This document shows, in pieces, positions 7,939 to 36,026 of a DNA stretch of 64,000 bases. Under the pieces are notes generated by a model, which ran no database searches, had not been told where the DNA came from, and saw nothing but the letters and a program-made list of their open reading frames with translations. Within the stretch, counting starts at the first letter, position 1. The number at the start of each line of letters is the position of its first letter. The stretch is from a virus (Duplodnaviria; Caudoviricetes), in IMG/VR virus record IMGVR_UViG_3300025129_000005; one strand, given 5' to 3'. A program made the translations under genes and the position numbers.

Positions 7939-8746
7939 TATGTCAATAAACGGTAATATGTTGAATGCCGTTGATATGCAGAATTATTTTGGGTGTGATC
8001 TGATTGTATTGGAACAAAAACCAATACGTTATTTCAATGTAAGTAAAGGTATATATAGACCTTTCAGGTGCTTTATAACCAACAAAATACCTGATGATGA
8101 TGTTTTTATTATAGATTATAAGGCATTTTTGTATATATTAGAAAATAGTGTATCTTTTGGTTGTGATAAAATGATAGTTATGGACTGTCTTGAGCTAACA
8201 CTACAACAATTAGATATGACCTATCATAAATATTATAAAAAAATATCTAATATGGAGTGTTTGTTTGAGGGTCTATTCCCCAAAACGGAAATTCAGTTTT
8301 TAATGCCCAAAAACAATTTTGATATATTTGATTTAGGGTTTCCTTGTGACGTGTTTCATAAGAAAATAAATTTTGATATTATGAATTTTCCTTCATTTAT
8401 GGATGATAATTTTGTATATAGACCCGATGTTGATAATAGTGTTTTATTGTCATGCTATTCAGAAGCGAATGAATGTGATCTAGGTAAAGACTTATTTAAG
8501 TCAAAAAATTTTATATATCAGAGGCGAAGTACTCTTGGATTCATTGAACAATTTGGTAGAATGGTGTTCGAATTATATTATACAAATCGTGACATATGGA
8601 CTGTCGGTGATATTTTTGATGGAAATGATGGTCTGACAGAGCATTTAAGATTATTAGATGCCAGTGTTATTGACAGTAAATTATATATTCCTAACATAGA
8701 AGACATCAACATGAATAACTATAACTATATGGATAAATACTTATAA
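7919..8746 (+). CDS. Hypothetical protein, last gene of the modification cluster
   Basis: Long ORF coupled to the GT gene; no motif recognised. Confidence 0.6.
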   Translation: MKIITFDMSINGNMLNAVDMQNYFGCDLIVLEQKPIRYFNVSKGIYRPFRCFITNKIPDDDVFIIDYKAFLYILENSVSFGCDKMIVMDCLELTLQQLDMTYHKYYKKISNMECLFEGLFPKTEIQFLMPKNNFDIFDLGFPCDVFHKKINFDIMNFPSFMDDNFVYRPDVDNSVLLSCYSEANECDLGKDLFKSKNFIYQRRSTLGFIEQFGRMVFELYYTNRDIWTVGDIFDGNDGLTEHLRLLDASVIDSKLYIPNIEDINMNNYNYMDKYL

Positions 8747-14363: not shown

Positions 14364-14863
14364 GTAATTATCATAAACATGCAATAGAGGAAATGAAGAG
14401 GATAGGATTCAGGTTTGTTGAAGATGGCTATCCAATTCAAGACCCAAATGAAGAATTTGATGTGAATGCGGAAATGGCTATGTGTGTCTTGGATATTCTT
14501 GATGTGTTTGGTAAACAAGGTCATTCAGGTATGTCAGCGTCATATTGTTTGCAGATTCTTGAGAAGGTCATGAAGTTTGAGCCTATAACACCCCTAACAG
14601 GTGATGATGATGAGTGGAATTGTATTGCTGATGAACGTACCAATGGTGAAGAGATTTATCAAAATAAGCGATGTTCACACGTTTTCAAAAGGAACGGACA
14701 AGCGTATGATATAGATGGTAAGGTGTTTTGGGAATGGTATACTGATGGGGTAACTGGCGAGAGACATAAAACTTATTATACCTGTTCAGAGAGTCATGTA
14801 GACATAGAGTTTCCGTATACACCAACAAGAGTTGAAGAATATATGGAGAGTGGTTGTGAGTGA
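14360..14863 (+). CDS. Conserved phage hypothetical protein
   Basis: QGHSGMSA, PITPLTGDDDEW, YQNKRCSHVFK motifs seen in many phages. Confidence 0.65.
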   Translation: MSNYHKHAIEEMKRIGFRFVEDGYPIQDPNEEFDVNAEMAMCVLDILDVFGKQGHSGMSASYCLQILEKVMKFEPITPLTGDDDEWNCIADERTNGEEIYQNKRCSHVFKRNGQAYDIDGKVFWEWYTDGVTGERHKTYYTCSESHVDIEFPYTPTRVEEYMESGCE

Positions 14864-15047
14864 AGATGTTCAAGTATTTAAAATATGTGACAACGAAGGA
14901 TCAACAGTTTATCTTGAGCATGACGAAAATGTTATGAGAATACTGCAAGGTTTTGTTGACTGGGCCGAACCAAAACAAAAAATGATCGTTGAGGTTGTCG
15001 TGGTATCCAGAGAAGATTTGAATAAATTGCCAAGGAGTATGATCTAA
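14856..15047 (+). CDS. Hypothetical protein
   Basis: GTG start after GGAG, coupled to gp46. Confidence 0.5.
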   Translation: MSEDVQVFKICDNEGSTVYLEHDENVMRILQGFVDWAEPKQKMIVEVVVVSREDLNKLPRSMI

Positions 15048-17263
15048 TGGGCAAAATAAACGTTGATAAGGTTGAATTAAAAAATTTCCTGTCATATGGG
15101 AATCAGTGGACAGTTTTTGATTTCCAGACAGGAATTAACGTTGTTCTTGGTCACGATAAAGATAAAGAACGATCAAATGGTGCTGGTAAGACCAGTTTTC
15201 TAGAGGCTATTCCCTTTGCTCTGTTTGGTCAGATTAATAAAGGTATATCATTACCGAAAATTGTGAATTGGCGAAACGGTAAACAATGTGAGGTAAAACT
15301 TCACTTCCGTAAGGATGGTGTGTCTTACATGATCCACCGTGGAATTAAGCCCGGAATCTTAACATTGTTTAAAGATGGTGTTGAGGTTCCAAAATTATCC
15401 GATAAGAGGTTGTTTCAGGCAGAACTTGAAGATGATTTGATTGGTATGGACTTTAAAGCCGCACAAGCACTCTTGTTTCAGAATGCTAATAACATGGTTT
15501 CGATGTTTAATACTCCAAAGGCAGACAAACGTAGATTTGTTGAGAAGTTCTTTAATCTTGAGATTTATTCTAAGGCAACAGAGGTCACCAATAAGAAGCT
15601 GAAAGGTGTTGATGACAAGATTTCAGAGATTAGGGTAGATGTGTCATATAAACAGAAGTCAATAGATGACCTCACCGCTAAGATAGAGTCATTTGTGGCA
15701 CCTGATTTGGATGTATATCAAGGTAAAGTGGTATCTATTCAAACATTATATGACACATTCACGGAAAATAATCCAGACCTTGAAGAACGTTTGAAAAATT
15801 TAAACAATTTATGCACAGAGTTGACCAAGAAGCGAGATGAACTGAATACTAAGGTTTCAAAAACCAAAGAGAAGCTTGGTGATGTGCGTCTTGAGGTTCG
15901 AGCATTAGAAACGGAAGCAACAACGAAACGTCAGCGTATAGAAAAGATCGGTGATTTATCGGAACAGACAGATAAACTTATTAGGGTTAAGAGTGAGTTA
16001 ATTAAGCTTTCAGACCTTAATAGAGAACCCACTAAAACTGAAATTGATAATCTTCTTGATGAATTGGGTAAACAAAAACAACTTCTAACGGAATGTAATA
16101 CTTACATTCGCCAATACAAGAATGAGATTGAAAGCTTTGAAAATATGGAGACAACATCTGAATCGGTATGTCCCACTTGTTTTCGAGAAGTTGATCATGA
16201 ACATATTAAAAACCATATCGAGTCACAAGTTGCGGGACTGAAACAAGAATTAGTTATTAAAAATGGTCATTTGTCTAACATTGAAGAGAATATCATCGAA
16301 CTTAGCCACAAACACAAAGAAAAAAGTGATCTTCTTGATGGTATAAACTATAAGATTGAACAAAAAAATAAGTTAGAACAAGCACTTGCAAAACTATCAG
16401 GTGTTGAAGAAAAAGAGATAGAACTATCAGAGTTAAAAGTTCGTATTGATGAGATTGACACAGTTATTCTACCAGAGTATCGTGATAAAGAATCTGCGTT
16501 GGTTGCTCAGATTGAAGCGGAAGATCTGGAATATAAGGATTCATTACTTGAAGTTAACAATAACAATGCACTTATTGATAAATGTAAAGACACTATAAGA
16601 GAACGAGATAAGTTGTTGAATGAACTTGATACTGCTACGAGTATCCTTGATAATCAAAAGGAAATCCATGACAGGTTGATTGGTGAAAATGAAGCAAATA
16701 TTGCGACTAAAGTAAAACTTGAGTCCGAGATTGTATCTACCCAAGCCGAAGTTAGAAAATTAGAAATAATGAAGGATTACCTAGAGCATATCAAGTTCAC
16801 CTTAAAAGACGAGAATGTTAAACAATATGCTATTAGTAGTATTATCCCGTACTTACAGCAACAGATGAACCATTATCTCTCCGAGACAGGGAATTACTAC
16901 GTTGAGTTGGATAACTGGTTGGACGGAACGATTAAAGGTTTTGGTGTCGGTGAATGTGACTTTGGAAATATGTCAGGTGGAGAGGGTAAGTCTATTGACC
17001 TCGCGTTAAAATTCGCTATGATGGATGTTGCACGTAGACAAGCTGGATCATATCTTGATATTCTAGTACTAGATGAACTATTGGACAGTTCTATAGATAG
17101 TCATGGTTTAGATAAAATGATGGATATTGTCAGAATGAAACAAAGAGAAGACAACTTGAAGGTCTTTATCGTCTCTCATAGAGAGGAAGTTGCATCTTTT
17201 GATGCCGACAGAACATTTGTTGTGGAAAAAGAGCAAGGAATGTCCAATATTAGGGAATTATAA
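15047..17263 (+). CDS. gp46: Recombination ATPase subunit (Rad50/SbcC-like, T4 gp46)
   Basis: KNFLSYGN, NGAGKTS Walker A, coiled coil with CPTC zinc hook, MSGGE signature, LVLDELLDSS, VSH. Confidence 0.92.
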   Translation: MGKINVDKVELKNFLSYGNQWTVFDFQTGINVVLGHDKDKERSNGAGKTSFLEAIPFALFGQINKGISLPKIVNWRNGKQCEVKLHFRKDGVSYMIHRGIKPGILTLFKDGVEVPKLSDKRLFQAELEDDLIGMDFKAAQALLFQNANNMVSMFNTPKADKRRFVEKFFNLEIYSKATEVTNKKLKGVDDKISEIRVDVSYKQKSIDDLTAKIESFVAPDLDVYQGKVVSIQTLYDTFTENNPDLEERLKNLNNLCTELTKKRDELNTKVSKTKEKLGDVRLEVRALETEATTKRQRIEKIGDLSEQTDKLIRVKSELIKLSDLNREPTKTEIDNLLDELGKQKQLLTECNTYIRQYKNEIESFENMETTSESVCPTCFREVDHEHIKNHIESQVAGLKQELVIKNGHLSNIEENIIELSHKHKEKSDLLDGINYKIEQKNKLEQALAKLSGVEEKEIELSELKVRIDEIDTVILPEYRDKESALVAQIEAEDLEYKDSLLEVNNNNALIDKCKDTIRERDKLLNELDTATSILDNQKEIHDRLIGENEANIATKVKLESEIVSTQAEVRKLEIMKDYLEHIKFTLKDENVKQYAISSIIPYLQQQMNHYLSETGNYYVELDNWLDGTIKGFGVGECDFGNMSGGEGKSIDLALKFAMMDVARRQAGSYLDILVLDELLDSSIDSHGLDKMMDIVRMKQREDNLKVFIVSHREEVASFDADRTFVVEKEQGMSNIREL

Positions 17264-27775: not shown

Positions 27776-28258
27776 ATGGTAGGAATTAGAAGTCGTGGAA
27801 TGGGCGGGGGTCAATGGACTGACCATGAAGATTTGGATCTATCGAAACCTTTGACAATTATTTGTCATGAAGGGAATCTTCAAGTTGACGTAACTGATGC
27901 AATTGAAATCAATTTTGATTACACTCGTTATCATGGTAATCGTGTTGTAAAAATTGATCCTGTGGCGAATGCATGGATTGAATATATACTTGGGTATCAG
28001 ATTGAGCGTGATCTACAGCCACAAGACCGTCCAGACTCTATGGCACATGTTATTGGTTTATGTGACCTTCCGATTAAGTTGATGCAGAAGGCTGGTCAGG
28101 GGTTGCCAATTTTCATTAGAGAACCAGAAGTATCACTTCATCCAAGTCAACAGAGACGTGTTTCGGACTTTTTATCCGCAATTTCTCAACATACTGATAA
28201 TGCAACTGGAAGTTTCACTGAACTACCAAGAGGCTATAAAAATGGTTGGAGTGTATAA
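27776..28258 (+). CDS. Hypothetical protein with an ABC/AAA_21-like EPExxLHP..Q motif
   Basis: IFIREPEVSLHPSQQ; no Walker A. Confidence 0.55.
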   Translation: MVGIRSRGMGGGQWTDHEDLDLSKPLTIICHEGNLQVDVTDAIEINFDYTRYHGNRVVKIDPVANAWIEYILGYQIERDLQPQDRPDSMAHVIGLCDLPIKLMQKAGQGLPIFIREPEVSLHPSQQRRVSDFLSAISQHTDNATGSFTELPRGYKNGWSV

Positions 28259-28266
28259 TAAAATCC

Positions 28267-28295
28267 TTGACACTCACCCCATATTTGGATAGTAT
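28267..28295 (+). promoter_or_regulatory. Sigma70-type promoter
   Basis: TTGACA-17-TAGTAT. Confidence 0.6.
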
Positions 28296-28327
28296 GGGGT
28301 TATCTCGTTCTACAAAAGGAAAATGTT

Positions 28328-28600
28328 ATGGCGAAACTATTTAAAAACCTCACCCTCAAAGAACAATACAAAATGTATTTTGAGTCTGTCCGTGGTGCTA
28401 AAGAAATTCCTTCCAAAAACAAATATTCTGTGTTAGAATGGGTTACGTCAAAAGGCGATAAAAAGTACATTCTTTTGGGGTCTTCTGGATCAGTAAGGGC
28501 TAATTCCAAACCAGTTGTCGCCAATTCATTCTCTATCGCAAGTAATGCGTTAAAAGATGATGTTAAAAAATGGGCAATCGACAAAGGTTATGAACTTTAA
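28328..28600 (+). CDS. Hypothetical protein
   Basis: SD AAGGA. Confidence 0.6.
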   Translation: MAKLFKNLTLKEQYKMYFESVRGAKEIPSKNKYSVLEWVTSKGDKKYILLGSSGSVRANSKPVVANSFSIASNALKDDVKKWAIDKGYEL

Positions 28601-28618
28601 TTAATAGGAGATATAAAA

Positions 28619-29473
28619 ATGCAGTTTCTTAATCAATTGAATCCTTTTTACCCTGTAATCCGAAATAAACTTTTCACCCCTTTCACCTATGAAGGTGACG
28701 AAACTCCTACAGATTTGTATGTTGACCGTGATGCACTGTTGAATGGTGAAAACGGTAAAGTTCTTGGTACTGTTGGTCCTCACTACAAACTTATGTTGAA
28801 CGAAGAGGTTTTTGATATTTTCTCAGAAGCCTTTGCCGATCTTCCGATTGAATCAGTTTGTGACCACCTGAACTGGAAACAGAACCGTTGGCAACGTGAT
28901 TTTATCCTCGATGGTGATCAGTTCAATATGTCAATTGGCGATGAAATTATTAAAACCAAGGTTTCAATTTTCAACGGGTACGATGGTAAATCCAGTGTAG
29001 GTTTCACTGTTGCCGCATACCGTGATAACGGAAATGTTACTTTCTTGAACAATATGTTCACTCAGACCTATTCGCACGTTCAACGCGGTCTGGTTGCCCG
29101 TATCCGTGAAGACTTTGCAGCAAAACTTGAACTTTTCCGTCAAACCGCTGAAATGTTTCGCCGTTTTGATCAAGAGGTGTTTACGGGTGAGCAATTTGAG
29201 TCTTTTGTTAATGGCCTGGTCGATGAAAGTGGTGGTCGCAATGGCTATTTGTCCGAAAATCAGGCGCGGTTAATTATCAACTCTTATAATCAACTATTTA
29301 CTCGTCTCGGAGTTCGACAAACGCGCTTCGGTGCATATACGGTTCTTTCGGCAATCGCATCCGAACGACCGGGACGCGGTAACAGTTCTCCTATTTTCAC
29401 GGCCGCTCACAAACGTATCGAAAAAGTTGTCGATGATTTCTTTTCTGATGCCGGAGATTTGTTCATCATCTAA
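28619..29473 (+). CDS. DUF932-like protein
   Basis: LGTVGPHYKLMLNEEVF, IFNGYDGKSSV pattern. Confidence 0.65.
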   Translation: MQFLNQLNPFYPVIRNKLFTPFTYEGDETPTDLYVDRDALLNGENGKVLGTVGPHYKLMLNEEVFDIFSEAFADLPIESVCDHLNWKQNRWQRDFILDGDQFNMSIGDEIIKTKVSIFNGYDGKSSVGFTVAAYRDNGNVTFLNNMFTQTYSHVQRGLVARIREDFAAKLELFRQTAEMFRRFDQEVFTGEQFESFVNGLVDESGGRNGYLSENQARLIINSYNQLFTRLGVRQTRFGAYTVLSAIASERPGRGNSSPIFTAAHKRIEKVVDDFFSDAGDLFII

Positions 29474-29480
29474 ATCAAAT

Positions 29481-29507
29481 AAAGGGGGTGGCTTATGTCA
29501 CCCCTTT
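29481..29507 (+). terminator. Intrinsic terminator
   Basis: AAAGGGGGTG/CACCCCTTT hairpin. Confidence 0.65.
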
Positions 29508-29522
29508 CTATAGGGGTTTATA

Positions 29523-29819
29523 ATGTCGTATATACCAAGATGTGTAAAATGTGGTAGTGATAAGATTGATATGATGGTTGATATCACCATTGTTTTACCT
29601 GCTAAATACCAAAGTCAACTGACCAAGAAAGTTCTGTATTCAAAAGAGTGTGAAGTATGGGGTGCGAATTGGGAAAGAGCGTCATACTTCTGTAAGAACC
29701 CTGAATGCGGTCACAATCGTCTTGCACCAAACCCGAAATGGGTAGAAAGTATGAAGGAACTTGAAGAGGAAAATCGTCAGTTAAAACAGCAACTTGAATT
29801 GATTAGTGGTTATAATTAA
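29523..29819 (+). CDS. Zn-finger hypothetical protein
   Basis: CVKC...CKNPEC. Confidence 0.55.
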   Translation: MSYIPRCVKCGSDKIDMMVDITIVLPAKYQSQLTKKVLYSKECEVWGANWERASYFCKNPECGHNRLAPNPKWVESMKELEEENRQLKQQLELISGYN

Positions 29820-29861
29820 CACAAATTAATATTTTTTTTTTGCAAAAAAAATGAAATTTTT

Positions 29862-29869
29862 TATAAATA
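29862..29869 (+). promoter_or_regulatory. T4-type late promoter upstream of the leader peptide
   Basis: TATAAATA; the same motif recurs at 41029, 42998, 43913, 46877, 50748, 59560, 61889 and 62524, each just upstream of a gene or RNA. Confidence 0.65.
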
Positions 29870-29902
29870 ACTTATAAGAAGATTATGGAGATGTCAATTT
29901 CA

Positions 29903-30004
29903 ATGAAAAAATCACGGATACATATTAGTTGGTCGTTTAATATTAGCGACATGAACCCCATGGCGTGTTTTGTTACACGTGATGAGTATCAGGGGGTAGT
30001 GTAG
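29903..30004 (+). CDS. Putative attenuator leader peptide (33 aa)
   Basis: GGAG at 29887; MKKSRIHISWSFNISDMNPMACFVTRDEYQGVV*; the stop lies within the antiterminator strand. Confidence 0.55.
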   Translation: MKKSRIHISWSFNISDMNPMACFVTRDEYQGVV

Positions 30005-30073
30005 GTGGTTTAATTATTGGTATACATATATTAATAAAAACCACCTACAGAAAATTTTGTAGGTGGTTTTTTA
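30001..30073 (+). terminator. Terminator with an alternative antiterminator strand
   Basis: AAAAACCACCTACA/TGTAGGTGGTTTTTT hairpin at 30036-30072; upstream copy GTAGGTGGTTT at 30001-30011. Confidence 0.8.
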
Positions 30074-30106
30074 GTTTTATGATCCTTGACAATTAAATAT
30101 TTAGTA

Positions 30107-30135
30107 TTGACAAGTTAATGTCCTTGGTGTAAGAT
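30107..30135 (+). promoter_or_regulatory. Sigma70-type promoter of the tRNA array
   Basis: TTGACA-17-TAAGAT. Confidence 0.6.
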
Positions 30136-30158
30136 TTTATAAAACTTAAGGAGATTAT

Positions 30159-30229
30159 GCCCCTGTTAGTGGATTAAACTCTCGGCTACGAACTGAGATG
30201 GCAAGGTTCGACTCCTTGCAGGGGTGCCA
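30159..30229 (+). tRNA. tRNA-Arg(ACG)
   Basis: CTCGG-ctACGaa-CTGAG arm, GTTCGA T-loop, CCA end. Confidence 0.8.
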
Positions 30230-30240
30230 ATTTTAAACCC

Positions 30241-30555
30241 ATGGATGTATGCTTTTGGTGTAGACAGGCTAAAGACGAAACAGATACGACAGGTGTTCCT
30301 GAATTTTTTGATTATGATGCGTGTGATCGATGTCAATCTAAAATGGATGAAGGTATAACGATCATTCAGGTTGATATTGTAAGGAATGAAAATCCTGCAA
30401 TAAAAGATAACATCTATCCTACGGGAAAATGGGTCGTTGTTAAAGAAAACAGAATTCTTGAAGATTTTAAAGAATGGAAATCTTTAACGGAAGTTATACA
30501 AACTCGATGCATGTTTATGAACAAAGCAACATGGGATTCATATGGGTTATCGTGA
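30241..30555 (+). CDS. Zn-finger hypothetical protein
   Basis: CFWC...CDRC; ORF between tRNAs. Confidence 0.55.
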   Translation: MDVCFWCRQAKDETDTTGVPEFFDYDACDRCQSKMDEGITIIQVDIVRNENPAIKDNIYPTGKWVVVKENRILEDFKEWKSLTEVIQTRCMFMNKATWDSYGLS

Positions 30556-30565
30556 TATTTTTGTA

Positions 30566-30638
30566 GGGGATTGGTGTAATGGTAGCACACCTGATTTTGA
30601 GTCAGGCAATATCGGTTCGATTCCGTGCTACCCCACCA
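30566..30638 (+). tRNA. tRNA-Gln(TTG), imperfect acceptor stem
   Basis: CCTGA-ttTTGag-TCAGG, GGTTCGATT, CCA. Confidence 0.75.
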
Positions 30639-30713
30639 AAATTTTAAAGAGTCCTCAAACTCGGCGACTACCTCGACAAGTCTAAGGGATACGGTGCGAG
30701 GACTCGATATTTT

Positions 30714-30788
30714 GCTCCGTTCGTCTACTGGTTAGGACAGTGGGTTTTCAGTCCACTGAAAGGGGTTCGATTCCCCTACGGAGTACCA
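30714..30788 (+). tRNA. tRNA-Glu(TTC)
   Basis: GTGGG-ttTTCag-TCCAC; cloverleaf; CCA. Confidence 0.85.
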
Positions 30789-30796
30789 ATTTATGT

Positions 30797-30871
30797 TCCA
30801 AGTTAGTTCAGAGGTAGAACGTCTGGCTGTTAACCAGAATGTCGCAGGTTCGATCCCTGCACTTGGAGCCA
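30797..30871 (+). tRNA. tRNA-Asn(GTT)
   Basis: TCTGG-ctGTTaa-CCAGA; CCA. Confidence 0.9.
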
Positions 30872-30886
30872 AAATTAAATGGTTAT

Positions 30887-30962
30887 ACCCTGTAGATCAT
30901 CTGATGGTGATACCTGACTGTCACTCAGGATTTGGCGGGTTTGATTCCCGTACAGGGTGCCA
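30887..30962 (+). tRNA. tRNA-Asp(GTC)
   Basis: CCTGA-ctGTCac-TCAGG; CCA. Confidence 0.85.
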
Positions 30963-30970
30963 ATTTTATA

Positions 30971-31053
30971 TAGGCGTAAGTTAACGTGTATCTGGTGAAC
31001 ACACTGGCCTCCAAAACCAGCACTAAGGGGTTCGATTCCTCACGTCTATGCCA
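30971..31053 (+). tRNA. tRNA-Trp(CCA), enlarged D region
   Basis: CTGGC-ctCCAaa-ACCAG; TAGGCGT/ACGTCTA acceptor; CCA. Confidence 0.75.
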
Positions 31054-31057
31054 ATTT

Positions 31058-31133
31058 GTCTCTTAAGCTAATCTGGTGAAAGCGTCTGTTTGAAGAACAG
31101 AAGAGTCGGGTTCGAAACCTGAAAGAGACACCA
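31058..31133 (+). tRNA. tRNA-Phe(GAA)
   Basis: TCTGT-ttGAAga-ACAGA; CCA. Confidence 0.8.
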
Positions 31134-31210
31134 AGTTTGGGTTGACCGTGTATATCGGCTTCGGGGGGTTATCAAAACCCTCACCCAAGAAAAATCAAAA
31201 AAAAAACATC

Positions 31211-31239
31211 TTGACAATTCAAAACGAACCTGATAAGAT
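31211..31239 (+). promoter_or_regulatory. Sigma70-type promoter preceding an unidentified ncRNA
   Basis: TTGACA-17-TAAGAT. Confidence 0.65.
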
Positions 31240-31244
31240 GTTTT

Positions 31245-31592
31245 CACGGTTGAGGGAAAAAGGGTAGTGAAAAGTAGGGTCTGACGAAGAACATCAATGG
31301 TGTATGAATGCACGTCCCCTTTAGTACGGGGAAAGAACGGTTCAATTCCGGCGGTGATGACAAGTAGTGATCCGAATATCTTGAAACGTAGGAAAGTCCG
31401 AAGTAGTGTCCTGAAAGAAGTATTCTCAGAATTCACTGAGACTTCAATAGTAAGGTCTGACGAAATAAGAGACACCTTAGATTTCATTTGAGACTCACCC
31501 TTTACTCTAACAAAAGACGGATGAACCCAAACGACCCCGTGTGCAGGTGAGGGTTTTCGTTTCAGAATGGAACAAACGAACAAATTCCATTC
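31245..31592 (+). ncRNA. Unidentified ~350-nt structured RNA
   Basis: Own promoter; no convincing + strand ORF with an SD; 5' AAAGGGT pairs with ACCCTTT near 31497; repeated GGTCTGACGAA; several hairpins. Confidence 0.45.
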
Positions 31593-31655
31593 AAATTTTA
31601 AGGTAGATGGGTATAAGTTGATGATTTACCTCCTTGTACACTCTACCGGAAGTTT

Positions 31656-31731
31656 GCTCCCTTGGTGAAATTGTTTATCACATTCGCCTGATTAGCGAAA
31701 GTTCAGGGTTAGAATCCTTGAGGGAGTACCA
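31656..31731 (+). tRNA. tRNA-Ile(GAT)
   Basis: TTCGC-ctGATta-GCGAA; CCA. Confidence 0.8.
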
Positions 31732-31986
31732 AGTTTACACAGTTAAGGGGAAAGATGAGGTATCTTTCCATAGAAGACCCCCAACGGCCAAGTGGGAATA
31801 AGAATATGATACGGCGCTTTCCAATAGTATCATGAAACCTTGTCTTCGTAGCTTTCCCCTTTTTAATTTACAAGTTGTCAATGGCTCGGTGAATCATACT
31901 ACATCGGAACAGGTATCCGATAGTCCAGTAACCTGAATGTATGAGTGACAACGATTTAGTTAACCTTCTTGCGGATTGGAGAAATA

Positions 31987-32361
31987 ATGTTAAAAGCATA
32001 TTCTGTCTTTGCTGAGGGATGTCGGCAGGAACATGCTGAACTGGTATTCCACAGATCATCAAAAGAAGCGCGGTCATTGGCGTGGAAACGCCCGCACGGT
32101 AGTTTCTGCTGCGACTGGATCGACCTACGAGTTAATCGAGTAAAAGAAGTTGACCATTTGACCGACGGCAAAACAGAACCATTTGTTTGCCACGATAACG
32201 CGATGTTTCGTGAGGCTGGGTGGAGGAGTGAAGATTGCTCGTCGTGTGCCAGTTGTGGATTGACCGACTTTTCGGACGGAGAAAACAGGCAATGGGCAGT
32301 TTGCCTTGAGTGTGGGCAGTGTGGCGAGTGCGGACACGACGACGAGTGTATAAGCGCCTAA
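31987..32361 (+). CDS. Cys-rich hypothetical protein in a GC-richer insert within the tRNA array
   Basis: SD GGAG; CASCG...CLECGQCGECGH. Confidence 0.65.
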   Translation: MLKAYSVFAEGCRQEHAELVFHRSSKEARSLAWKRPHGSFCCDWIDLRVNRVKEVDHLTDGKTEPFVCHDNAMFREAGWRSEDCSSCASCGLTDFSDGENRQWAVCLECGQCGECGHDDECISA

Positions 32362-32371
32362 CAAGTATTAT

Positions 32372-32445
32372 CGCGGAATAGAGAAATGGCATCTCGTAAG
32401 GTTCATATCCTTGAGTTACGGGTTCGAATCCCGTTTCCGCTACCA
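32372..32445 (+). tRNA. tRNA-Met(CAT), initiator-like
   Basis: Starts CGCGG with a 1:72 mismatch like fMet; ttCATat loop; CCA. Confidence 0.75.
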
Positions 32446-32604
32446 AGTTCTGAGAGTGTCAGAGTATGTGTCATACAAGATCATATGCAATACGTGTAAA
32501 TAGCATATTGAGTTGTCACAGGCTCGGATACATGAACCGAAAGTTCCTTTAAACACGTCAAAAGGGAACACTGACACTCTCAGTTAGTCTTTTATGATTT
32601 ATAT

Positions 32605-32681
32605 CTGTCGGTACGCAAGTCTGGTATGCGACCTGCCTTGGACGCAGGAAATCGTGGGTTCAAATCCTACCCGGCAGACCA
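32605..32681 (+). tRNA. tRNA-Pro(TGG)
   Basis: CCTGC-ctTGGac-GCAGG; CCA. Confidence 0.88.
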
Positions 32682-32861
32682 TTTATATAGACGCGACACT
32701 TAGTTAGTGTCTAGTCAGGTGGCGATACCCTGATGATTGAAGGGGCTGACTATCCCAAAAAGCGCACTTTACACTCGTATGAGTATGTCCCTGTGGTGAC
32801 AGGGTTAGTGTTACGGTGGAGATTAATTTCTGTGAAGCTGACGCACATCACCAAAATTTAA

Positions 32862-32937
32862 GGGGGTAGGCAATGGGGTTGCGGCTTTTCCTTGCAAGGA
32901 AAGTGACTGAGGGGTTCGATTCCCCCTACCTCCACCA
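32862..32937 (+). tRNA. tRNA-Ala(TGC)
   Basis: ctTGCaa loop; G3:U70 identity pair; CCA. Confidence 0.82.
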
Positions 32938-32951
32938 AATTTATGAATTTT

Positions 32952-33029
32952 GACCCATTACTCCACGATGGCAGAGAGAACACGTTTAGACCGTGTACAG
33001 GGAGAGTTCGACACTCGCATGGGCTACCA
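32952..33029 (+). tRNA. tRNA-Leu(TAG), short variable loop
   Basis: ACACG-ttTAGac-CGTGT; CCA. Confidence 0.7.
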
Positions 33030-33037
33030 AAGTTTAA

Positions 33038-33109
33038 GCTCGTCGAAGGTCTGATGACCTAGTATCTCTTACAAAGAGACTGGATGGTTTGATTCCATGG
33101 CGAGTACCA
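33038..33109 (+). tRNA. tRNA-Val(TAC), divergent
   Basis: ctTACaa loop; GCTCGTC/GGCGAGT acceptor; CCA. Confidence 0.65.
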
Positions 33110-33115
33110 GTTAAA

Positions 33116-33191
33116 TCAGGAGTTAAGATAGAGGTAAATCGTGTTGGCTGTGACCCAGCAAACAAGGGTTCGAATTCCTTACTCCTGACCA
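33116..33191 (+). tRNA. tRNA-His(GTG)
   Basis: GTTGG-ctGTGac-CCAGC; CCA. Confidence 0.82.
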
Positions 33192-33194
33192 TAA

Positions 33195-33268
33195 GCCGGA
33201 TTAGTTAAATGGTATAACTTCTGTTTTGTAATCAGAATTTGCGGGTTCGATTCCTGCATCCGGCTCCA
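33195..33268 (+). tRNA. tRNA-Thr(TGT)
   Basis: ttTGTaa loop in TTCTG/CAGAA stem; CCA. Confidence 0.82.
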
Positions 33269-33281
33269 AGTTTAAAGTTTT

Positions 33282-33355
33282 GCGGGTATAGTTAAAAGGT
33301 ATAACTACAGCCTTCCAAGTTGTAATTGTCGGTTCGATTCCGTCTACCCGCTCCA
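33282..33355 (+). tRNA. tRNA-Gly(TCC)
   Basis: ACAGC-ctTCCaa-GTTGT; CCA. Confidence 0.88.
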
Positions 33356-33392
33356 ATACATAAGTTGTCAATATTTTAAATTGAATATAGTG

Positions 33393-33421
33393 TTGACATA
33401 GTTACATAAAGACTGTAGAAT
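33393..33421 (+). promoter_or_regulatory. Sigma70-type promoter within the tRNA array
   Basis: TTGACA-17-TAGAAT with extended TG. Confidence 0.7.
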
Positions 33422-33447
33422 ACTGATTAGTTTGTTTGAGAATTTAA

Positions 33448-33532
33448 GCCCCTTGCCCCGACAACAGACTTCTAATCTGTTCCTTAAAAGTTGGATGGAA
33501 GGTACGAGGTTCGATTCCTCCAAGGGGTTCCA
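33448..33532 (+). tRNA. Atypical tRNA-Arg(TCT): rudimentary D-arm, long extra region
   Basis: GCCCCTT/AAGGGGT acceptor; ACAGA-ctTCTaa-TCTGT; GAGG-TTCGATT-CCTC; CCA. Confidence 0.65.
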
Positions 33533-33545
33533 GAATATTAAATAT

Positions 33546-33620
33546 GCTCCTGTAATTCAATGGTAGAATAGGCGACTTATAATCGCTCTATAGTAGGTTC
33601 GAATCCTCTCAGGAGTACCA
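33546..33620 (+). tRNA. tRNA-Ile(TAT)
   Basis: GGCGA-ctTATaa-TCGCT; full cloverleaf; CCA. Confidence 0.82.
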
Positions 33621-33760
33621 GTTTTATAGAGGAAGTCTGATAGGCGTCATCCCAAACCTCTTTAAAAAAGTCGTGGGTGTCCGTTCCCTAAGAAGGTATG
33701 GGAGGACGAACTTCTCAAGTTTACAAATCGCTGAATATAGTGTATCATGTTTATATGTAT

Positions 33761-33836
33761 AGGGGTGTAGCGCAAAGGCAGAGGCATCAGGTTTAAGCCC
33801 TGATTAGTGGGAGTTCGAATCTCCTCACCCCTACCA
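33761..33836 (+). tRNA. tRNA-Leu(TAA), short variable loop
   Basis: TCAGG-ttTAAgc-CCTGA; CCA. Confidence 0.75.
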
Positions 33837-33849
33837 ATTTTATAGTTAT

Positions 33850-33925
33850 GGGGGCGTAGCCAAGTGGAATGGCAACAGACTTTTAATCTGTATATCGGTG
33901 GGTTCGAATCCCCCCGCCCTCACCA
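33850..33925 (+). tRNA. tRNA-Lys(TTT)
   Basis: ACAGA-ctTTTaa-TCTGT; CCA. Confidence 0.88.
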
Positions 33926-33940
33926 TTAGCGAGGTAATCT

Positions 33941-34295
33941 ATGGATGATAAACTACATACCTTAGAAATAACTGGCGGTGAAACGATAGAATTCAGAGAT
34001 AAATTATCTGGTTTTTTATCAAGAGCCACTCGGAACCTTTGAGCTTACGGATAAAGAAAAATATCTGCACAGTTTGGTTAAAGAGTACCACACCCGCTGC
34101 GAGGAATACGACAGGACGGTATGTACAGACCCGGTAGAGCGAGATGGGATTCTCCCCGCGAATGGTTTTGAGGTACGCCAAATCAACCTAAACGCCATAG
34201 AAGTGCGAAAAAATTTACAAGATCGAGCCTACAGAGAGCGTGGGATCTCGCCCGGCGAGGTGAGCAGAGCCATTTCGGACTACAGAGCCAGATAA
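33941..34295 (+). CDS. Hypothetical protein, apparently frameshifted at T6 34012-34017
   Basis: SD GAGGT and ATG 33941; the downstream frame is open from 33990 without its own ATG; removing one T fuses the two. Confidence 0.45.
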
Positions 34296-34356
34296 CCGGG
34301 TTGTCGTAGGTGAACCAACCATTAAAAAAGAAGCAAAAAAATGTTTAAGTTTTATG

Positions 34357-34385
34357 TTTACATACGGTAAACAAACTGGTATAGT
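34357..34385 (+). promoter_or_regulatory. Sigma70-type promoter of the giant ncRNA
   Basis: TTTACA-17-TATAGT. Confidence 0.6.
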
Positions 34386-34391
34386 GGTTAA

Positions 34392-35735
34392 GTAGTCACA
34401 ATCACCCATCACAGATAACCAAGAGAGATACTTGGTGTCCAGAGATAATATCAACGGGGTAAGGGATTGTGTCAAGTTCTTTGACAATTGAAAGTAAAAA
34501 CGGTTGACGGAATAATGGTTGCATGACCATAACGTACCCTGATAGGGGTTGAAATACCCAAAAGCCCGATGCGGTATATCTAAAGGGAGTGGTTAGTAAC
34601 GTCATCCTGAACAATGAACAGAACAGACCGAGGTAACGTAACCTAGTGTGGTCGCAATAAGGTCAAGGTTCTGGTTCTCCTGCTGAAATCCACACGATAG
34701 CCTATTATAGAATCAATGCCAGTGGGAGTTGGGGGTAAGGAAATTCCCCTCATCCAATGAACCCTTCGGGGGAGGTAAACAATAGGACTTGCTACCCTAT
34801 TGGGATGTGTCAGAATGTTTGGGTTGTCGAGAAATCTTGGATGATTGATGTTGTCATTCACCGTTTTTACTTTCAATTGCTAAAGAGCAATAAGTTCTTT
34901 CAAAATCAGAATATGGTCGCTTGAGGTCATAGAAATAAACCACGGTAACGTGGGGAAAGGGATGTACTTCTATCAGTCTCCCGCCCTATAAAAGGGATAA
35001 TCAAGCAAGCCTCGTCTTCACCCGTAATGGGTGAGTTCATCTTACCAAGGGATGGACTTGAGTAAGGACGGTAGAGTAGGACAAATAAACCAATGGGTAA
35101 CTCTGGTTGGTTTATCTTTCGGGTGGTACCGAATTACTGCATACCAAATCTACTTAATTACAAAAGATAAGGGGTAATCAACTCAGTCCGAGAGTAGTGT
35201 CAAGGGCGGTTGGTAGTTCGATAGGGAACGGATACCTACGGTAGTAGGTGGACGGAATCTTGACAAACCATTGAGTACCAATACAAACGGGAAAGATACT
35301 AGGTGTGTGGTATTTCGTAGTCGCAAGATTATGAATCCACAGGGGTCACACATCTTCGATAGTTAATTGACAGCCCTTGAAAGCTGTTGATTATTGGTTC
35401 AAATCCAATATTAATACTCAAACGCAAAGTTGACCCCGCTGTATGATGAAAGTGGCTTAATCCCCAACATGTTATGTGAATTGGGGTACTCAAAACCCGC
35501 AAGGTGGAGAGTATTGATAGGGAGTCGCACTTAGGGTGTTCGCTACACACTAGGGTAGACAAAGTATTGAATAGTCATACAGGACAGTGTTAAAGCAGAC
35601 ACTTTAATAATGCAGTCACGTTGGGATACATGAATGAGTTTCATGTGGACACGTGAGGAACCAAAGGGAATAAGTCCCCTACGGATAATCTCACAAAAGT
35701 CTTGACAACGAAGGTCTTAGTCTCAAACCTTCATA
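34392..35735 (+). ncRNA. GOLLD-like giant structured ncRNA (~1.35 kb)
   Basis: No credible ORF; GC-richer; dense hairpins with GNRA/UUCG-type loops (CGCAAG, CTTCGG, GTAAC); 19-bp long-range helix; located in a phage tRNA array. The GOLLD assignment rests on recalled 3' motifs and is not computed. Confidence 0.55.
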
Positions 35736-35829
35736 CTTTTTAAAAAAAAGTATACAATGATTTACAAAGTAAATAATAAGATACACTTTTCCTGATATCT
35801 CTAAGAGGTATGAGGAAAAGTGTATATTT

Positions 35830-35913
35830 GGCGGGTAGCGTCAAGGTGACAAAAGTGGCTTGAACCCACTGCCACGGTAAAACGTGAGAGTTCGATTCTT
35901 TTACCCGCCTCCA
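35830..35913 (+). tRNA. tRNA-Ser(TGA)
   Basis: AGTGG-ctTGAac-CCACT; long variable arm; CCA. Confidence 0.82.
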
Positions 35914-35918
35914 TTCAC

Positions 35919-36008
35919 GGAAAGCTAATCAGTAAGGTACTGACACCACCTGCTAAGTGGCTGGTTCGTGGTAACACGGATGGATTTCGAATATCCAGCT
36001 TTCCTCCA
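35919..36008 (+). tRNA. tRNA-Ser(GCT)
   Basis: CCAC-ctGCTaa-GTGG; long variable arm; CCA. Confidence 0.8.
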
Positions 36009-36026
36009 TTAAACATAAGGACTCTT

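What the first reader, a model, noticed from the sequence alone, without database searches (positions are those of the whole stretch)
31211..31592. Promoter-driven ~350-nt unidentified ncRNA with an internally repeated motif
Seen: a strong promoter at 31211-31239; the 5' segment pairs with ~31495-31507; GGTCTGACGAA occurs twice (31278, 31454); AGGAAAGTCC at 31390 (as in RNase P CR-I) without the rest of the RNase P signature; 3' hairpins including GAATGGAA/TTCCATTC. No family recognised, so it is a candidate novel phage ncRNA class.
Basis: partly seen in the sequence, partly recalled or inferred. Interest (0 to 1): 0.6.

Follow-up and report, generated by a model that had tools for sequence, protein, structure and literature searches.

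The report
Modular folded RNA in phage tRNA island
The stretch is a real, conserved, folded non-coding RNA that an uncultured giant phage makes from its own promoter in front of a block of tRNA genes; it founds a small RNA family absent from Rfam, but it is one more example of the function-unknown RNAs already known from phage tRNA islands.

Summary
The promoter (31211-31239) is letter-for-letter conserved in relatives. No Rfam 15 family matches. The minus-strand ORF is not a conserved protein.

The stretch is a composite:
- a body of about 260 nt (31249-31511), clamped by a long end-to-end helix;
- a degenerate tRNA cloverleaf (31290-31359) inside the body;
- a separate two-hairpin 3' module (31516-31592).

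The whole forms the leader of a tRNA-Ile sub-operon.

I found five more elements of the same build in three related phage lineages. The clamp helix has a different sequence in each but keeps pairing: 52 of 60 cells, against 23-33 of 60 in slid controls. The arms are swapped between members. Two close relatives keep the promoter but lack the body, so it is dispensable.

The internal repeat and the RNase P-like 11-mer carry no family signal. Function is unknown. My preferred reading is a stable RNA released by tRNA processing that acts as a tRNA-like scaffold or decoy; this is inference only. I could not obtain expression data.

It is a new family of a known kind (GOLLD, ROOL, T4 species 1 and 2 RNAs). 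This scan has already noted several unclassified tRNA-island RNAs in other phages.

The parts
31058..31133 (+). tRNA-Phe(GAA), upstream neighbour
   Evidence: ARAGORN and Rfam tRNA.
31164..31183 (+). Hairpin GGGGGTT-ATCAA-AACCCTC in the 78-nt spacer between tRNA-Phe and the promoter. It lies upstream of the RNA and is not part of it.
   Evidence: L062 has AGAGGTT/AACTTCT at the same place, with two compensatory pairs (alignment A1). The 12-nt long-range inverted repeat 31174-31185/31546-31557 is not kept in L062, so I treat it as chance.
31211..31239 (+). Sigma-70-type promoter with extended -10 (TTGACA-17-TGATAAGAT). The transcript probably starts near 31246.
   Evidence: The same 19 specified letters occur in L051 3225-3255 and in L056/L057. 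Near-identical copies occur in L062, L063 and L073. The start position is inferred from spacing only.
31249..31268 (+). 5' strand of the clamp helix (P0 31249-31256, P1 31259-31268)
   Evidence: It pairs with 31494-31511. In P0, G:C becomes A:U in L063. P1 covaries in six members.
31269..31283 (+). Conserved junction GAAAAGUAGGGU. It includes AGUA (31273-31276) and UAGGG (31275-31279).
   Evidence: GAAAGTAGGG follows P1 in all six elements. UAGGG can pair with 31379-31383. Alternatively GGGUC can pair with GAUCC 31369-31373, flanked by AGUA and GAA, which would form a loop-E-like arrangement. The data do not decide between the two.
31290..31359 (+). Degenerate tRNA cloverleaf ('tRNA-Thr(AGT)'-like) with the T-loop TTCAATT. 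It has no encoded CCA.
   Evidence: ARAGORN calls it at 95% of its default threshold. The Rfam tRNA model does not, even at E<=10 on 86 nt. Its D-like and anticodon-like hairpins are homologous in L062 and in the second L063 element. It has no particular parent tRNA (best identity 58%).
31372..31493 (+). Conserved 3' arm of the body. It holds AGGAAAGTCCG (31390-31400), a hairpin (31417-31446) and the second GGTCTGACGAA (31454-31464).
   Evidence: 31372-31505 is 92.6% identical to L063 7841-7975, while the flanking tRNA-Phe is 56% and tRNA-Ile 59.5% identical. It contains runs of 29, 25 and 22 identical letters.
31494..31511 (+). 3' strand of the clamp helix, preceded by the GA-rich junction UUUGAGA (UGAUGA in other members)
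31516..31592 (+). 3' module: hairpin 1 (31516-31561, invariant lower stem and variable tip) and hairpin 2 (31565-31571/31586-31592, with conserved 14-nt loop AACAAACGAACAAA)
   Evidence: A profile of four copies finds it in the window, L063, L062 and L064 at E 1e-23 to 1e-25. In L064 it stands without the body. Hairpin 2 has one compensatory and one wobble change.
31598..31655 (+). Conserved leader of tRNA-Ile (GGTAGA...TCTACC stem)
   Evidence: 72-81% identical in L051, L062 and L063. It is present in L051, which lacks the body.
31656..31731 (+). tRNA-Ile(GAT), first tRNA of the transcription unit
31068..31583 (-). 171-codon open frame on the opposite strand; not a gene
   Evidence: Among 5.8 billion proteins the only match is a 100%-identical fragment from the same phage. 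The indels against L063 are 7, 7, 1, 1 and 1 nt. The frame has stops in L063 and L062. There is no Pfam hit.

Best explanation
The stretch encodes a stable, folded non-coding RNA. It belongs to a small, unclassified, modular RNA family carried in the tRNA islands of a clade of uncultured giant phages.

Shown:
- A conserved host-type promoter stands directly in front of it.
- The body (about 31249-31511) is closed by a helix of about 20 bp that joins its two ends.
- A conserved GA-rich junction (GAAAGUAGGG on one strand, UGAUGA or UGAGA on the other) sits on that helix.
- From the junction spring exchangeable arms. In this phage these are a degenerate tRNA cloverleaf and a 120-nt arm that is nearly invariant between two phages.
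- A separate two-hairpin module follows the body, then the tRNA-Ile leader and tRNA-Ile.

Inferred:
- The RNA is made early by the host polymerase as the first part of a tRNA precursor.
- It is freed when RNase P cuts at tRNA-Ile. RNase P may also cut at the embedded cloverleaf.
- The end-to-end helix and the 3' hairpins protect it from exonucleases.
- It then acts in trans as a scaffold that displays a tRNA-shaped domain to some tRNA-recognising factor, such as a host tRNA-cutting defence nuclease or a tRNA-maturation enzyme.

The confidence given is for 'functional structured RNA of a new family'. For the tRNA-decoy step alone I would give about 0.15.
For: 1. Homologs lie in the same place (after tRNA-Phe plus the promoter) in L063 and L062. 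Three further elements of the same build lie in L063 and L073.
2. A profile of the four 'type B' elements hits the L063 homolog over its full length at E=3.8e-7.
3. In the six-way alignment the clamp helix P1 is a standard pair in 52 of 60 cells. This compares with 23-33 of 60 when the partner is slid by 1-3 columns. Five pairs change on both sides. In 5 of 6 elements the best partner of the 14 nt before GAAAG is the site just after UGAUGA at the element's end.
4. Compensatory changes also occur in P0, in hairpin 2 of the 3' module, and in the anticodon-like hairpin.
5. The central arm is 92.6% identical between two phages whose neighbouring tRNAs are 56-60% identical.
6. There is no conserved reading frame on either strand.
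7. The promoter is conserved exactly.
8. An embedded cloverleaf is found by ARAGORN just under its default threshold. Similar tRNA-like folds appear inside L062 and L073 elements at a laxer threshold. Kretsch et al. 2025 (PMC12286853) report that phage tRNAs sometimes sit in the GOLLD linker, so a tRNA inside a large phage RNA has a precedent.
Against: - The folding energy of the single sequence is not better than shuffles (z = +0.85).
- The near-invariant central arm offers almost no covariation, so most of the body has no tested structure.
- Its high identity between phages with very different flanking tRNAs may reflect recent exchange of a module rather than selection.
- Relatives L051 and L056 keep the promoter but lack the body, so the body is dispensable.
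- Only six elements in four lineages are known. No further copy turned up in IMG/VR or in GTDB genomes with four exact-pattern scans.
- The tRNA-decoy role has no direct evidence.
- The cloverleaf arm is absent from the closest homolog, L063.
Confidence: 0.68

Rival explanations
1. It is a cis-acting leader. The folded RNA exists only to control or guide the making of the tRNAs behind it. It could do this as a processing platform (an rRNA-operon-like end-to-end stem for RNase III, with a tRNA-like fold to recruit RNase P) or as a sensor that gates read-through.
For: - It is the first element of a promoter-to-tRNA unit.
- The tRNA-Ile leader behind it is conserved with or without the body.
- Long end-to-end stems are typical RNase III sites in rRNA operons (established knowledge).
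Against: - No terminator-like hairpin with a U run follows the body in any member. In L063 the 3' module runs straight into the next promoter.
- L051 and L056 make the same tRNAs from the same promoter without it.
- In L073 two elements stand in tandem and precede tRNA-Asp, not tRNA-Ile.
- The three letters after the conserved GAA do not change with the downstream tRNA, so there is no T-box-like specifier.
- There is no T-box match.
Confidence: 0.15
2. It is evolutionary debris: a decayed tRNA gene plus spacer pieces, shuffled between phages by recombination at the repeated promoter cassettes. It would be carried along without a function of its own.
For: - A sub-threshold pseudo-tRNA lies inside it.
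- The arms are swapped between members, and the body is present or absent among close relatives.
- Identity is mosaic.
- Homing-endonuclease-like genes sit in the same arrays in L063 and L070.
- Promoter-plus-stem-loop cassettes are known to drive module shuffling in T4-type phages (my own knowledge of the PeSL literature; not checked here).
Against: - The clamp helix keeps pairing through five different sequences.
- The junction letters are kept in all six elements.
- Compensatory changes occur in four separate helices.
- Debris would not keep 29-nt runs identical while neighbouring tRNAs diverge to 56%, unless the transfer was very recent.
Confidence: 0.12
3. It is a protein gene on the minus strand (31068-31583, 171 codons), or a small one on the plus strand (31297-31491, 64 codons).
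For: The frames are open in the window. One assembly's gene caller called the minus-strand frame (L058).
Against: - There is no homolog other than an identical fragment among 5.8 billion proteins, and no Pfam hit.
- Indels of 7, 7, 1, 1 and 1 nt against L063 break any frame.
- There are stops in L063 and L062.
- The minus frame would run through tRNA-Phe and the promoter.
- The plus strand is purine-rich, which by itself keeps the minus strand free of stops.
Confidence: 0.02
4. It is a very reduced RNase P-like ribozyme encoded by the phage to process its own tRNAs.
For: AGGAAAGTCCG (31390-31400) equals 11 letters of the universal CR-I/P4 strand of RNase P RNA, as recalled from established knowledge. 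It lies in a 29-nt run identical in L063. The RNA sits in a tRNA operon.
Against: - No RNase P model (nor any other of the 4227 Rfam models) matches at E<=10 on 601 nt or in L063.
- The only P4-like partner near the 3' clamp strand (GAUUUC 31480-31485) is weakened by the U-to-G change in L063.
- The type B members lack the string altogether.
Confidence: 0.01

Closest known systems
GOLLD RNA (Rfam RF02032) and ROOL RNA (RF03087), large phage RNAs of tRNA islands
   Same: - It is encoded by a phage among tRNA genes. A true GOLLD lies 3.7 kb downstream in the same array (35300-35729, 177 bits).
- It has its own promoter.
- It has conserved parts plus a variable part that can hold a tRNA. Kretsch et al. 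2025 (PMC12286853) report tRNAs in the GOLLD linker.
- Its function is unknown.
   Different: - There is no match to either model.
- It is about 260-350 nt, against 600-830 nt.
- The junction motifs are different.
- There is no evidence of self-assembly.
- It is known from only four phage lineages.
Small stable RNAs of the phage T4 tRNA gene cluster (species 1 and 2; rnaC, rnaD)
   Same: Both are non-tRNA stable RNAs made from a phage tRNA transcription unit and released by tRNA-processing enzymes, with function still unknown. This rests on my own knowledge.
   Different: The T4 RNAs are shorter (about 120-140 nt).
tRNA-like domains in other RNAs (tmRNA, bacterial Y RNA YrlA RF02553, viral tRNA-like structures)
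   Same: A cloverleaf-shaped domain with a T-loop (GGTTCAATTCC) is set into a larger RNA held by a long stem.
   Different: - There is no tmRNA call and no YrlA or tRNA model match.
- It has no CCA end and no G18G19.
- The domain is missing from the closest homolog.
T-box leader RNAs (RF00230)
   Same: Going up from a basal stem it has a GA-rich junction, then an AGUA...GAA arrangement like the S-turn of the T-box specifier loop, and then T-loop-bearing distal parts. The T-box side of this resemblance is from memory.
   Different: - There is no model match.
- There is no T-box sequence, terminator or antiterminator.
- The triplet after GAA does not follow the downstream tRNA.
- The AGUA/GAA pairing competes with an equally conserved alternative.

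Membership tests
RNase P RNA (Rfam bacterial A/B, archaeal, nuclear, type T models) | Match to a covariance model of the family | tested here: not met
   No hit at the gathering score on the whole window or at E<=10 on 31100-31700. None in the L063 homolog at E<=5.
RNase P RNA (Rfam bacterial A/B, archaeal, nuclear, type T models) | P4 helix: the CR-I strand paired with a CR-V strand next to the 3' strand of P1 | tested here: not met
   The CR-I-like AGGAAAGTCCG is present. The only nearby partner, GAUUUC 31480-31485, loses pairing in L063 through a U-to-G change. There is no CR-V-like string.
GOLLD (RF02032) / ROOL (RF03087) | Match to the family's covariance model | tested here: not met
   GOLLD is found only at 35300-35729. 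Nothing is found in 31100-31700 at E<=10.
GOLLD (RF02032) / ROOL (RF03087) | Location in a phage or prophage tRNA island | tested here: met
   It lies between tRNA-Phe and tRNA-Ile of an array of 21 tRNAs. This feature is shared by the kind and is not sufficient for membership.
tRNA (RF00005) | Cloverleaf scoring above the detection thresholds | tested here: not met
   ARAGORN at default gives no call. At 95% of the threshold it calls a 70-nt cloverleaf at 31290-31359. The Rfam tRNA model gives no hit at E<=10 on 86 nt.
tRNA (RF00005) | Encoded CCA end, as in the tRNAs flanking this stretch | tested here: not met
   tRNA-Phe and tRNA-Ile end in CCA. The cloverleaf is followed by ACAAG.
T-box leader (RF00230) | Model match, and a terminator/antiterminator with the T-box sequence | tested here: not met
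   No match. No terminator-like site follows on the + strand within 31134-31655.
tmRNA | tRNA-like domain plus tag reading frame | tested here: not met
   ARAGORN finds none in 28000-42000. A tmRNA is found in relative L064 at another place.
T4-type stable RNAs of tRNA operons (species 1 and 2) | A non-tRNA RNA inside a phage tRNA transcription unit | tested here: met
   The promoter at 31211-31239 is followed by the RNA and then by tRNA-Ile on the same strand. This is a functional grouping, not a homology family.
T4-type stable RNAs of tRNA operons (species 1 and 2) | Sequence or fold likeness to rnaC or rnaD | not testable with these tools
   blastn against 50,697 phage records, which should include T4, gave no match at all. 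This excludes only close sequence likeness. I held no model of these RNAs.
Protein-coding gene (minus-strand ORF 31068-31583) | Reading frame and protein sequence conserved in relatives | tested here: not met
   as described under parts.

The most novel reading that the evidence does not exclude
The six elements could define an undescribed class of 'display' RNAs of phage tRNA islands. In this reading a conserved clamp (the end-to-end helix plus the GA-rich junction) presents exchangeable arms, among them degenerate tRNA cloverleafs. The cloverleafs would soak up host tRNA-cutting defence nucleases or other tRNA-binding factors, so the arms would be swapped between phages as the host's weapons change.
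Probability: 0.1. Interest if true: 0.75.

Novelty: new member of a known kind. Interest (0 to 1): 0.42.

Why it matters
Phage tRNA islands are turning out to be dense with folded RNAs whose roles nobody knows. GOLLD and ROOL build RNA cages, yet their function is still open (PMC12286853).

This element adds a small, tractable family of 180-330 nt. It has a clear clamp helix, conserved junction letters and visibly exchangeable arms, one of them tRNA-shaped. It is also naturally present or absent among close relatives.

If the arms bind tRNA-recognising factors, the family would link these RNAs to the current idea that phage tRNA genes answer host tRNA-targeting defences. If not, it is still a useful annotation. 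The minus-strand 'gene' called here in one public assembly is spurious, and the promoter plus leader define a tRNA sub-operon.

Tried and rejected
- **Phage GenBank records:** blastn of the spacer against 50,697 records gave no match.
- **Exact-pattern scans of IMG/VR:** the repeat motif gave 48 hits, all chance. The 43-mer motif found only L056/L057. The type-B core found one GC-rich chance hit, L074. The central 21-mer and the 3'-module pattern found nothing.
- **GTDB genomes:** the last two patterns found nothing.
- **Other collections:** the anchor protein found no relative in IMG/VR. It found five short contigs in JGI metagenomes, of which only L051 reached the region.
- **The genome search:** no genome is held for the window. 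Of the relatives, only the L056 record is held.
- **The look-up of sequencing runs:** No read mapping was possible, so expression and RNA ends are untested.
- **Contig L076:** this 529-nt ENA contig, which carries the spurious ORF, covers 31106-31632. It looks like an ordinary DNA assembly fragment and gives no help on expression.
- **Long-range inverted repeats:** 31174-31185/31546-31557 and 31135-31143/31524-31532 are rejected as structure. They are not nested, each arm is used in a local conserved hairpin, and L062 does not keep them.
- **Pairing of the two GGUCUGAC copies with each other:** rejected because L063 lacks the first copy.
- **boxA-type antitermination signal:** there is no match within 3 mismatches in the element.
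- **Target for the conserved hairpin-2 loop:** no complementary site elsewhere in the window.
- **T-box-like specifier reading:** rejected, because the triplet does not follow the downstream tRNA.
- **Hammerhead reading of CUGACGA:** rejected. There is no model hit in the element, and the order of core elements does not fit.
- **RNAalifold on the variable arm of six members:** it gave no pairs because the arms are not alignable.

Full report
**Setting.** The window is part of an uncultured giant phage. All long ORFs are on the + strand and GC content is 32-45%. The finding lies in a + strand tRNA array of 21 tRNAs spanning 30159-40376. That array also holds a bona fide GOLLD RNA at 35300-35729 (RF02032, 177 bits). 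The flagged stretch fills the 522-nt gap between tRNA-Phe (31058-31133) and tRNA-Ile (31656-31731). The same DNA is found letter for letter in two public assemblies, ENA ERZ17986939 and JGI 3300008095.

**The observation.**
- The promoter TTGACA-17-TAAGAT, with a TG extension, is at 31211-31239.
- GGTCTGACGAA occurs at 31278 and 31454, within 19-nt copies.
- AGGAAAGTCC is at 31390.
- The GAATGGAA/TTCCATTC hairpin is at 31565-31592.
- The 5' end pairs with 31494-31511.
- No Rfam 15 family reaches its gathering score, and at E<=10 only two chance snoRNA hits appear.

The folding energy of the single sequence is unremarkable (z = +0.85). The sequence alone would therefore not make the case.

**Relatives.** Phage GenBank records have nothing similar, and IMG/VR has almost none. 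I reached relatives through the DUF932-like protein at 28619-29473, using and then the encoding contigs.

Two close relatives keep the promoter exactly (CTTGACA-N12-CCTGATAAGATG) but not the body.
- In L051 the promoter is followed by a 157-nt leader and then tRNA-Ile.
- In L056/L057 it is followed after 12 nt by tRNA-Pro.

Two more distant relatives have the element at the same place, after tRNA-Phe and the promoter.
- L063 7711-8069 is 86% identical over 232 nt.
- L062 8878-9355 has conserved ends and a replaced middle.

The central arm 31372-31505 is 92.6% identical to L063, whereas tRNA-Phe is 56% and tRNA-Ile 59.5% identical. The array is therefore a mosaic of exchanged modules. High identity alone cannot be read as purifying selection.

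**A family.** L063 has a second element behind a second promoter (8180-8415). L073, which equals L072, has two in tandem (14655-14838 and 14843-15168). L062 has one nested in its composite.

All six share one build:
1. a closing helix (P1);
2. the letters GAAAGUAGGG;
3. a variable domain ending in ...CCGAA;
4. an optional further arm;
5. a GA-rich string (UGAUGA, or UGAGA in the window);
6. the 3' strand of P1.

A profile of the four 'type B' elements hits the L063 homolog of the window's element over its full length (E=3.8e-7). This ties type A (window, L063) to type B.

In a six-way alignment RNAalifold predicts P1 as a 10-bp helix. It forms standard pairs in 52 of 60 cells, against 23-33 of 60 when the 3' partner is slid by 1-3 columns. 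Five of its pairs change on both sides. In five of six elements the energetically best partner of the 14 nt before GAAAG is the site just behind the GA-rich string.

Further compensatory changes:
- P0: G:C to A:U.
- Hairpin 2 of the 3' module: A:U to G:C.
- The anticodon-like hairpin.

The helix UAGGG (31275-31279) with UCUUG (31379-83) is kept in five of six elements, by one-sided changes only. It competes with GGGUC/GAUCC flanked by AGUA and GAA, a loop-E-like arrangement. The data do not decide between them.

**Anatomy in the window.**
1. The transcript probably starts near 31246. This is inferred from the promoter spacing.
2. P0/P1 is 31249-31268 with 31494-31511.
3. The junction is 31269-31283.
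4. One arm holds a degenerate tRNA cloverleaf at 31290-31359. ARAGORN calls it at 95% of its default threshold. It has a T-loop TTCAATT but lacks CCA, lacks G18G19, and gets no Rfam tRNA score. It has no identifiable parent tRNA. Its D-like and anticodon-like hairpins recur in L062 and in the second L063 element, inside closing stems of different sequence.
5. The near-invariant arm is 31372-31493.
6. The 3' module is 31516-31592. It is an independent unit, because in L064 it stands without any body directly before tRNA-Glu.
7. A conserved tRNA-Ile leader (31598-31655) is also present in body-less L051.

**Not a protein.** The 171-codon minus-strand frame has no relative among 5.8 billion proteins except an identical fragment, and it has no Pfam hit. 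Indels of 7, 7, 1, 1 and 1 nt against L063 break it, and it has stops in L063 and L062. It stays open in the window because the + strand is purine-rich.

**Not a known RNA.**
- RNase P: only the 11-letter CR-I-like string is present. There is no model hit, and the possible P4 partner is not kept.
- No tmRNA.
- No T-box, GOLLD, ROOL or Y RNA hit in the window or in relatives.

**How it most likely works.** What is shown is a conserved promoter, a clamp helix maintained by compensatory change, conserved junction letters, exchangeable arms that include tRNA-like folds, and a position at the head of a tRNA transcription unit.

What is inferred is the following. The host polymerase makes it early. 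RNase P at tRNA-Ile frees it. The paired ends and the 3' hairpins stabilise it. It then works in trans. I favour a scaffold that displays a tRNA-shaped arm to a tRNA-recognising factor, because tRNA-like folds recur in the arms and because GOLLD is reported to carry tRNAs in its linker (PMC12286853). This step has no direct support, and the closest homolog lacks the cloverleaf.

The main rivals are a purely cis-acting processing leader and recombination debris. The first is weakened by the lack of any terminator-like switch and by body-less relatives that make the same tRNAs. The second is weakened by covariation in four helices.

**Comparison and novelty.** The element works like, and sits like, the known function-unknown RNAs of phage tRNA islands (GOLLD, ROOL, the T4 species 1 and 2 RNAs). 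It is a member of none of the families that I could test. It is a new, small family of a known kind. Earlier notes of this scan describe several other unclassified tRNA-island RNAs in other phages, which lowers the surprise. None of them shares sequence with this one.

Noticed in passing
window 30649-30706; also L056 5186-5244, L063 5925-5984, L064 6068-6126, L073 14538-14597: A ~55-nt RNA motif with the core CACGGCGA-[hairpin]-CUAAGGGAUACGGUG, closed by a stem that differs in every copy. Nine of 16 predicted pairs change on both sides. A 43-nt stretch is 95% identical between phages that are otherwise about 75% alike. No Rfam family matches at the gathering score. It often lies next to the promoter or to the 3' module described here. 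Its class is unknown; it could be a processing signal or a small ribozyme or switch.
   Followed up: partly
window 31869-32365: A second ~500-nt stretch that is absent from relative L051, where tRNA-Ile and tRNA-Met lie 140 nt apart. It holds a 130-codon + strand frame (31969-32361, no Pfam hit).
   Followed up: no
window 31203-31244: The promoter sits inside a 10-nt perfect inverted repeat, AAAACATCTT/AAGATGTTTT, whose arms overlap the -35 and -10 boxes. The CATCTT/AAGATG core recurs in L056 and L062 but not in L063. It may serve as a recombination or processing cassette.
   Followed up: partly
window 34633-34643 and 34598-34618: The unclassified RNA just upstream of GOLLD contains GGTAACGTAAC. 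These are the same 11 letters as the conserved 3' core of the type B elements (GGTAACGTAACTCCCGAA). It also contains a similar string, AGTAACGTCATCCTGAACAAT. This may be a shared tertiary motif or a distant kinship. A type B profile did not reach significance on the window.
   Followed up: partly
L064 1780-2104: ARAGORN calls a phage-encoded tmRNA (tag ADNNVTYALAA) about 2.2 kb upstream of the tRNA array in this relative. None was found in window 28000-42000.
   Followed up: no
L060 8532-8864, L063 5217-5681, L064 5227-5700, L070 11898-12407, L072 18318-18584: Small genes with weak or faint Ribosomal_L12 (PF00542) hits sit inside the tRNA arrays of several relatives.
   Followed up: no
L063 6506-7135 and 8654-9196; L070 15879-16526: Genes with faint GIY-YIG (SegE) or NUMOD3 hits lie between the tRNAs. 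An uncharacterised 180-codon gene separates the conserved tRNA-Ile leader from tRNA-Ile in L063. These are probably homing endonucleases, which would fit the mosaic exchange of modules.
   Followed up: no
L062 14089-14143 and L056 11075-11143: The Rfam tRNA model scores 31-34 bits inside the GOLLD RNAs of two relatives. This fits tRNA-like inserts in GOLLD, as reported in PMC12286853 and in note e1-5379794.
   Followed up: no
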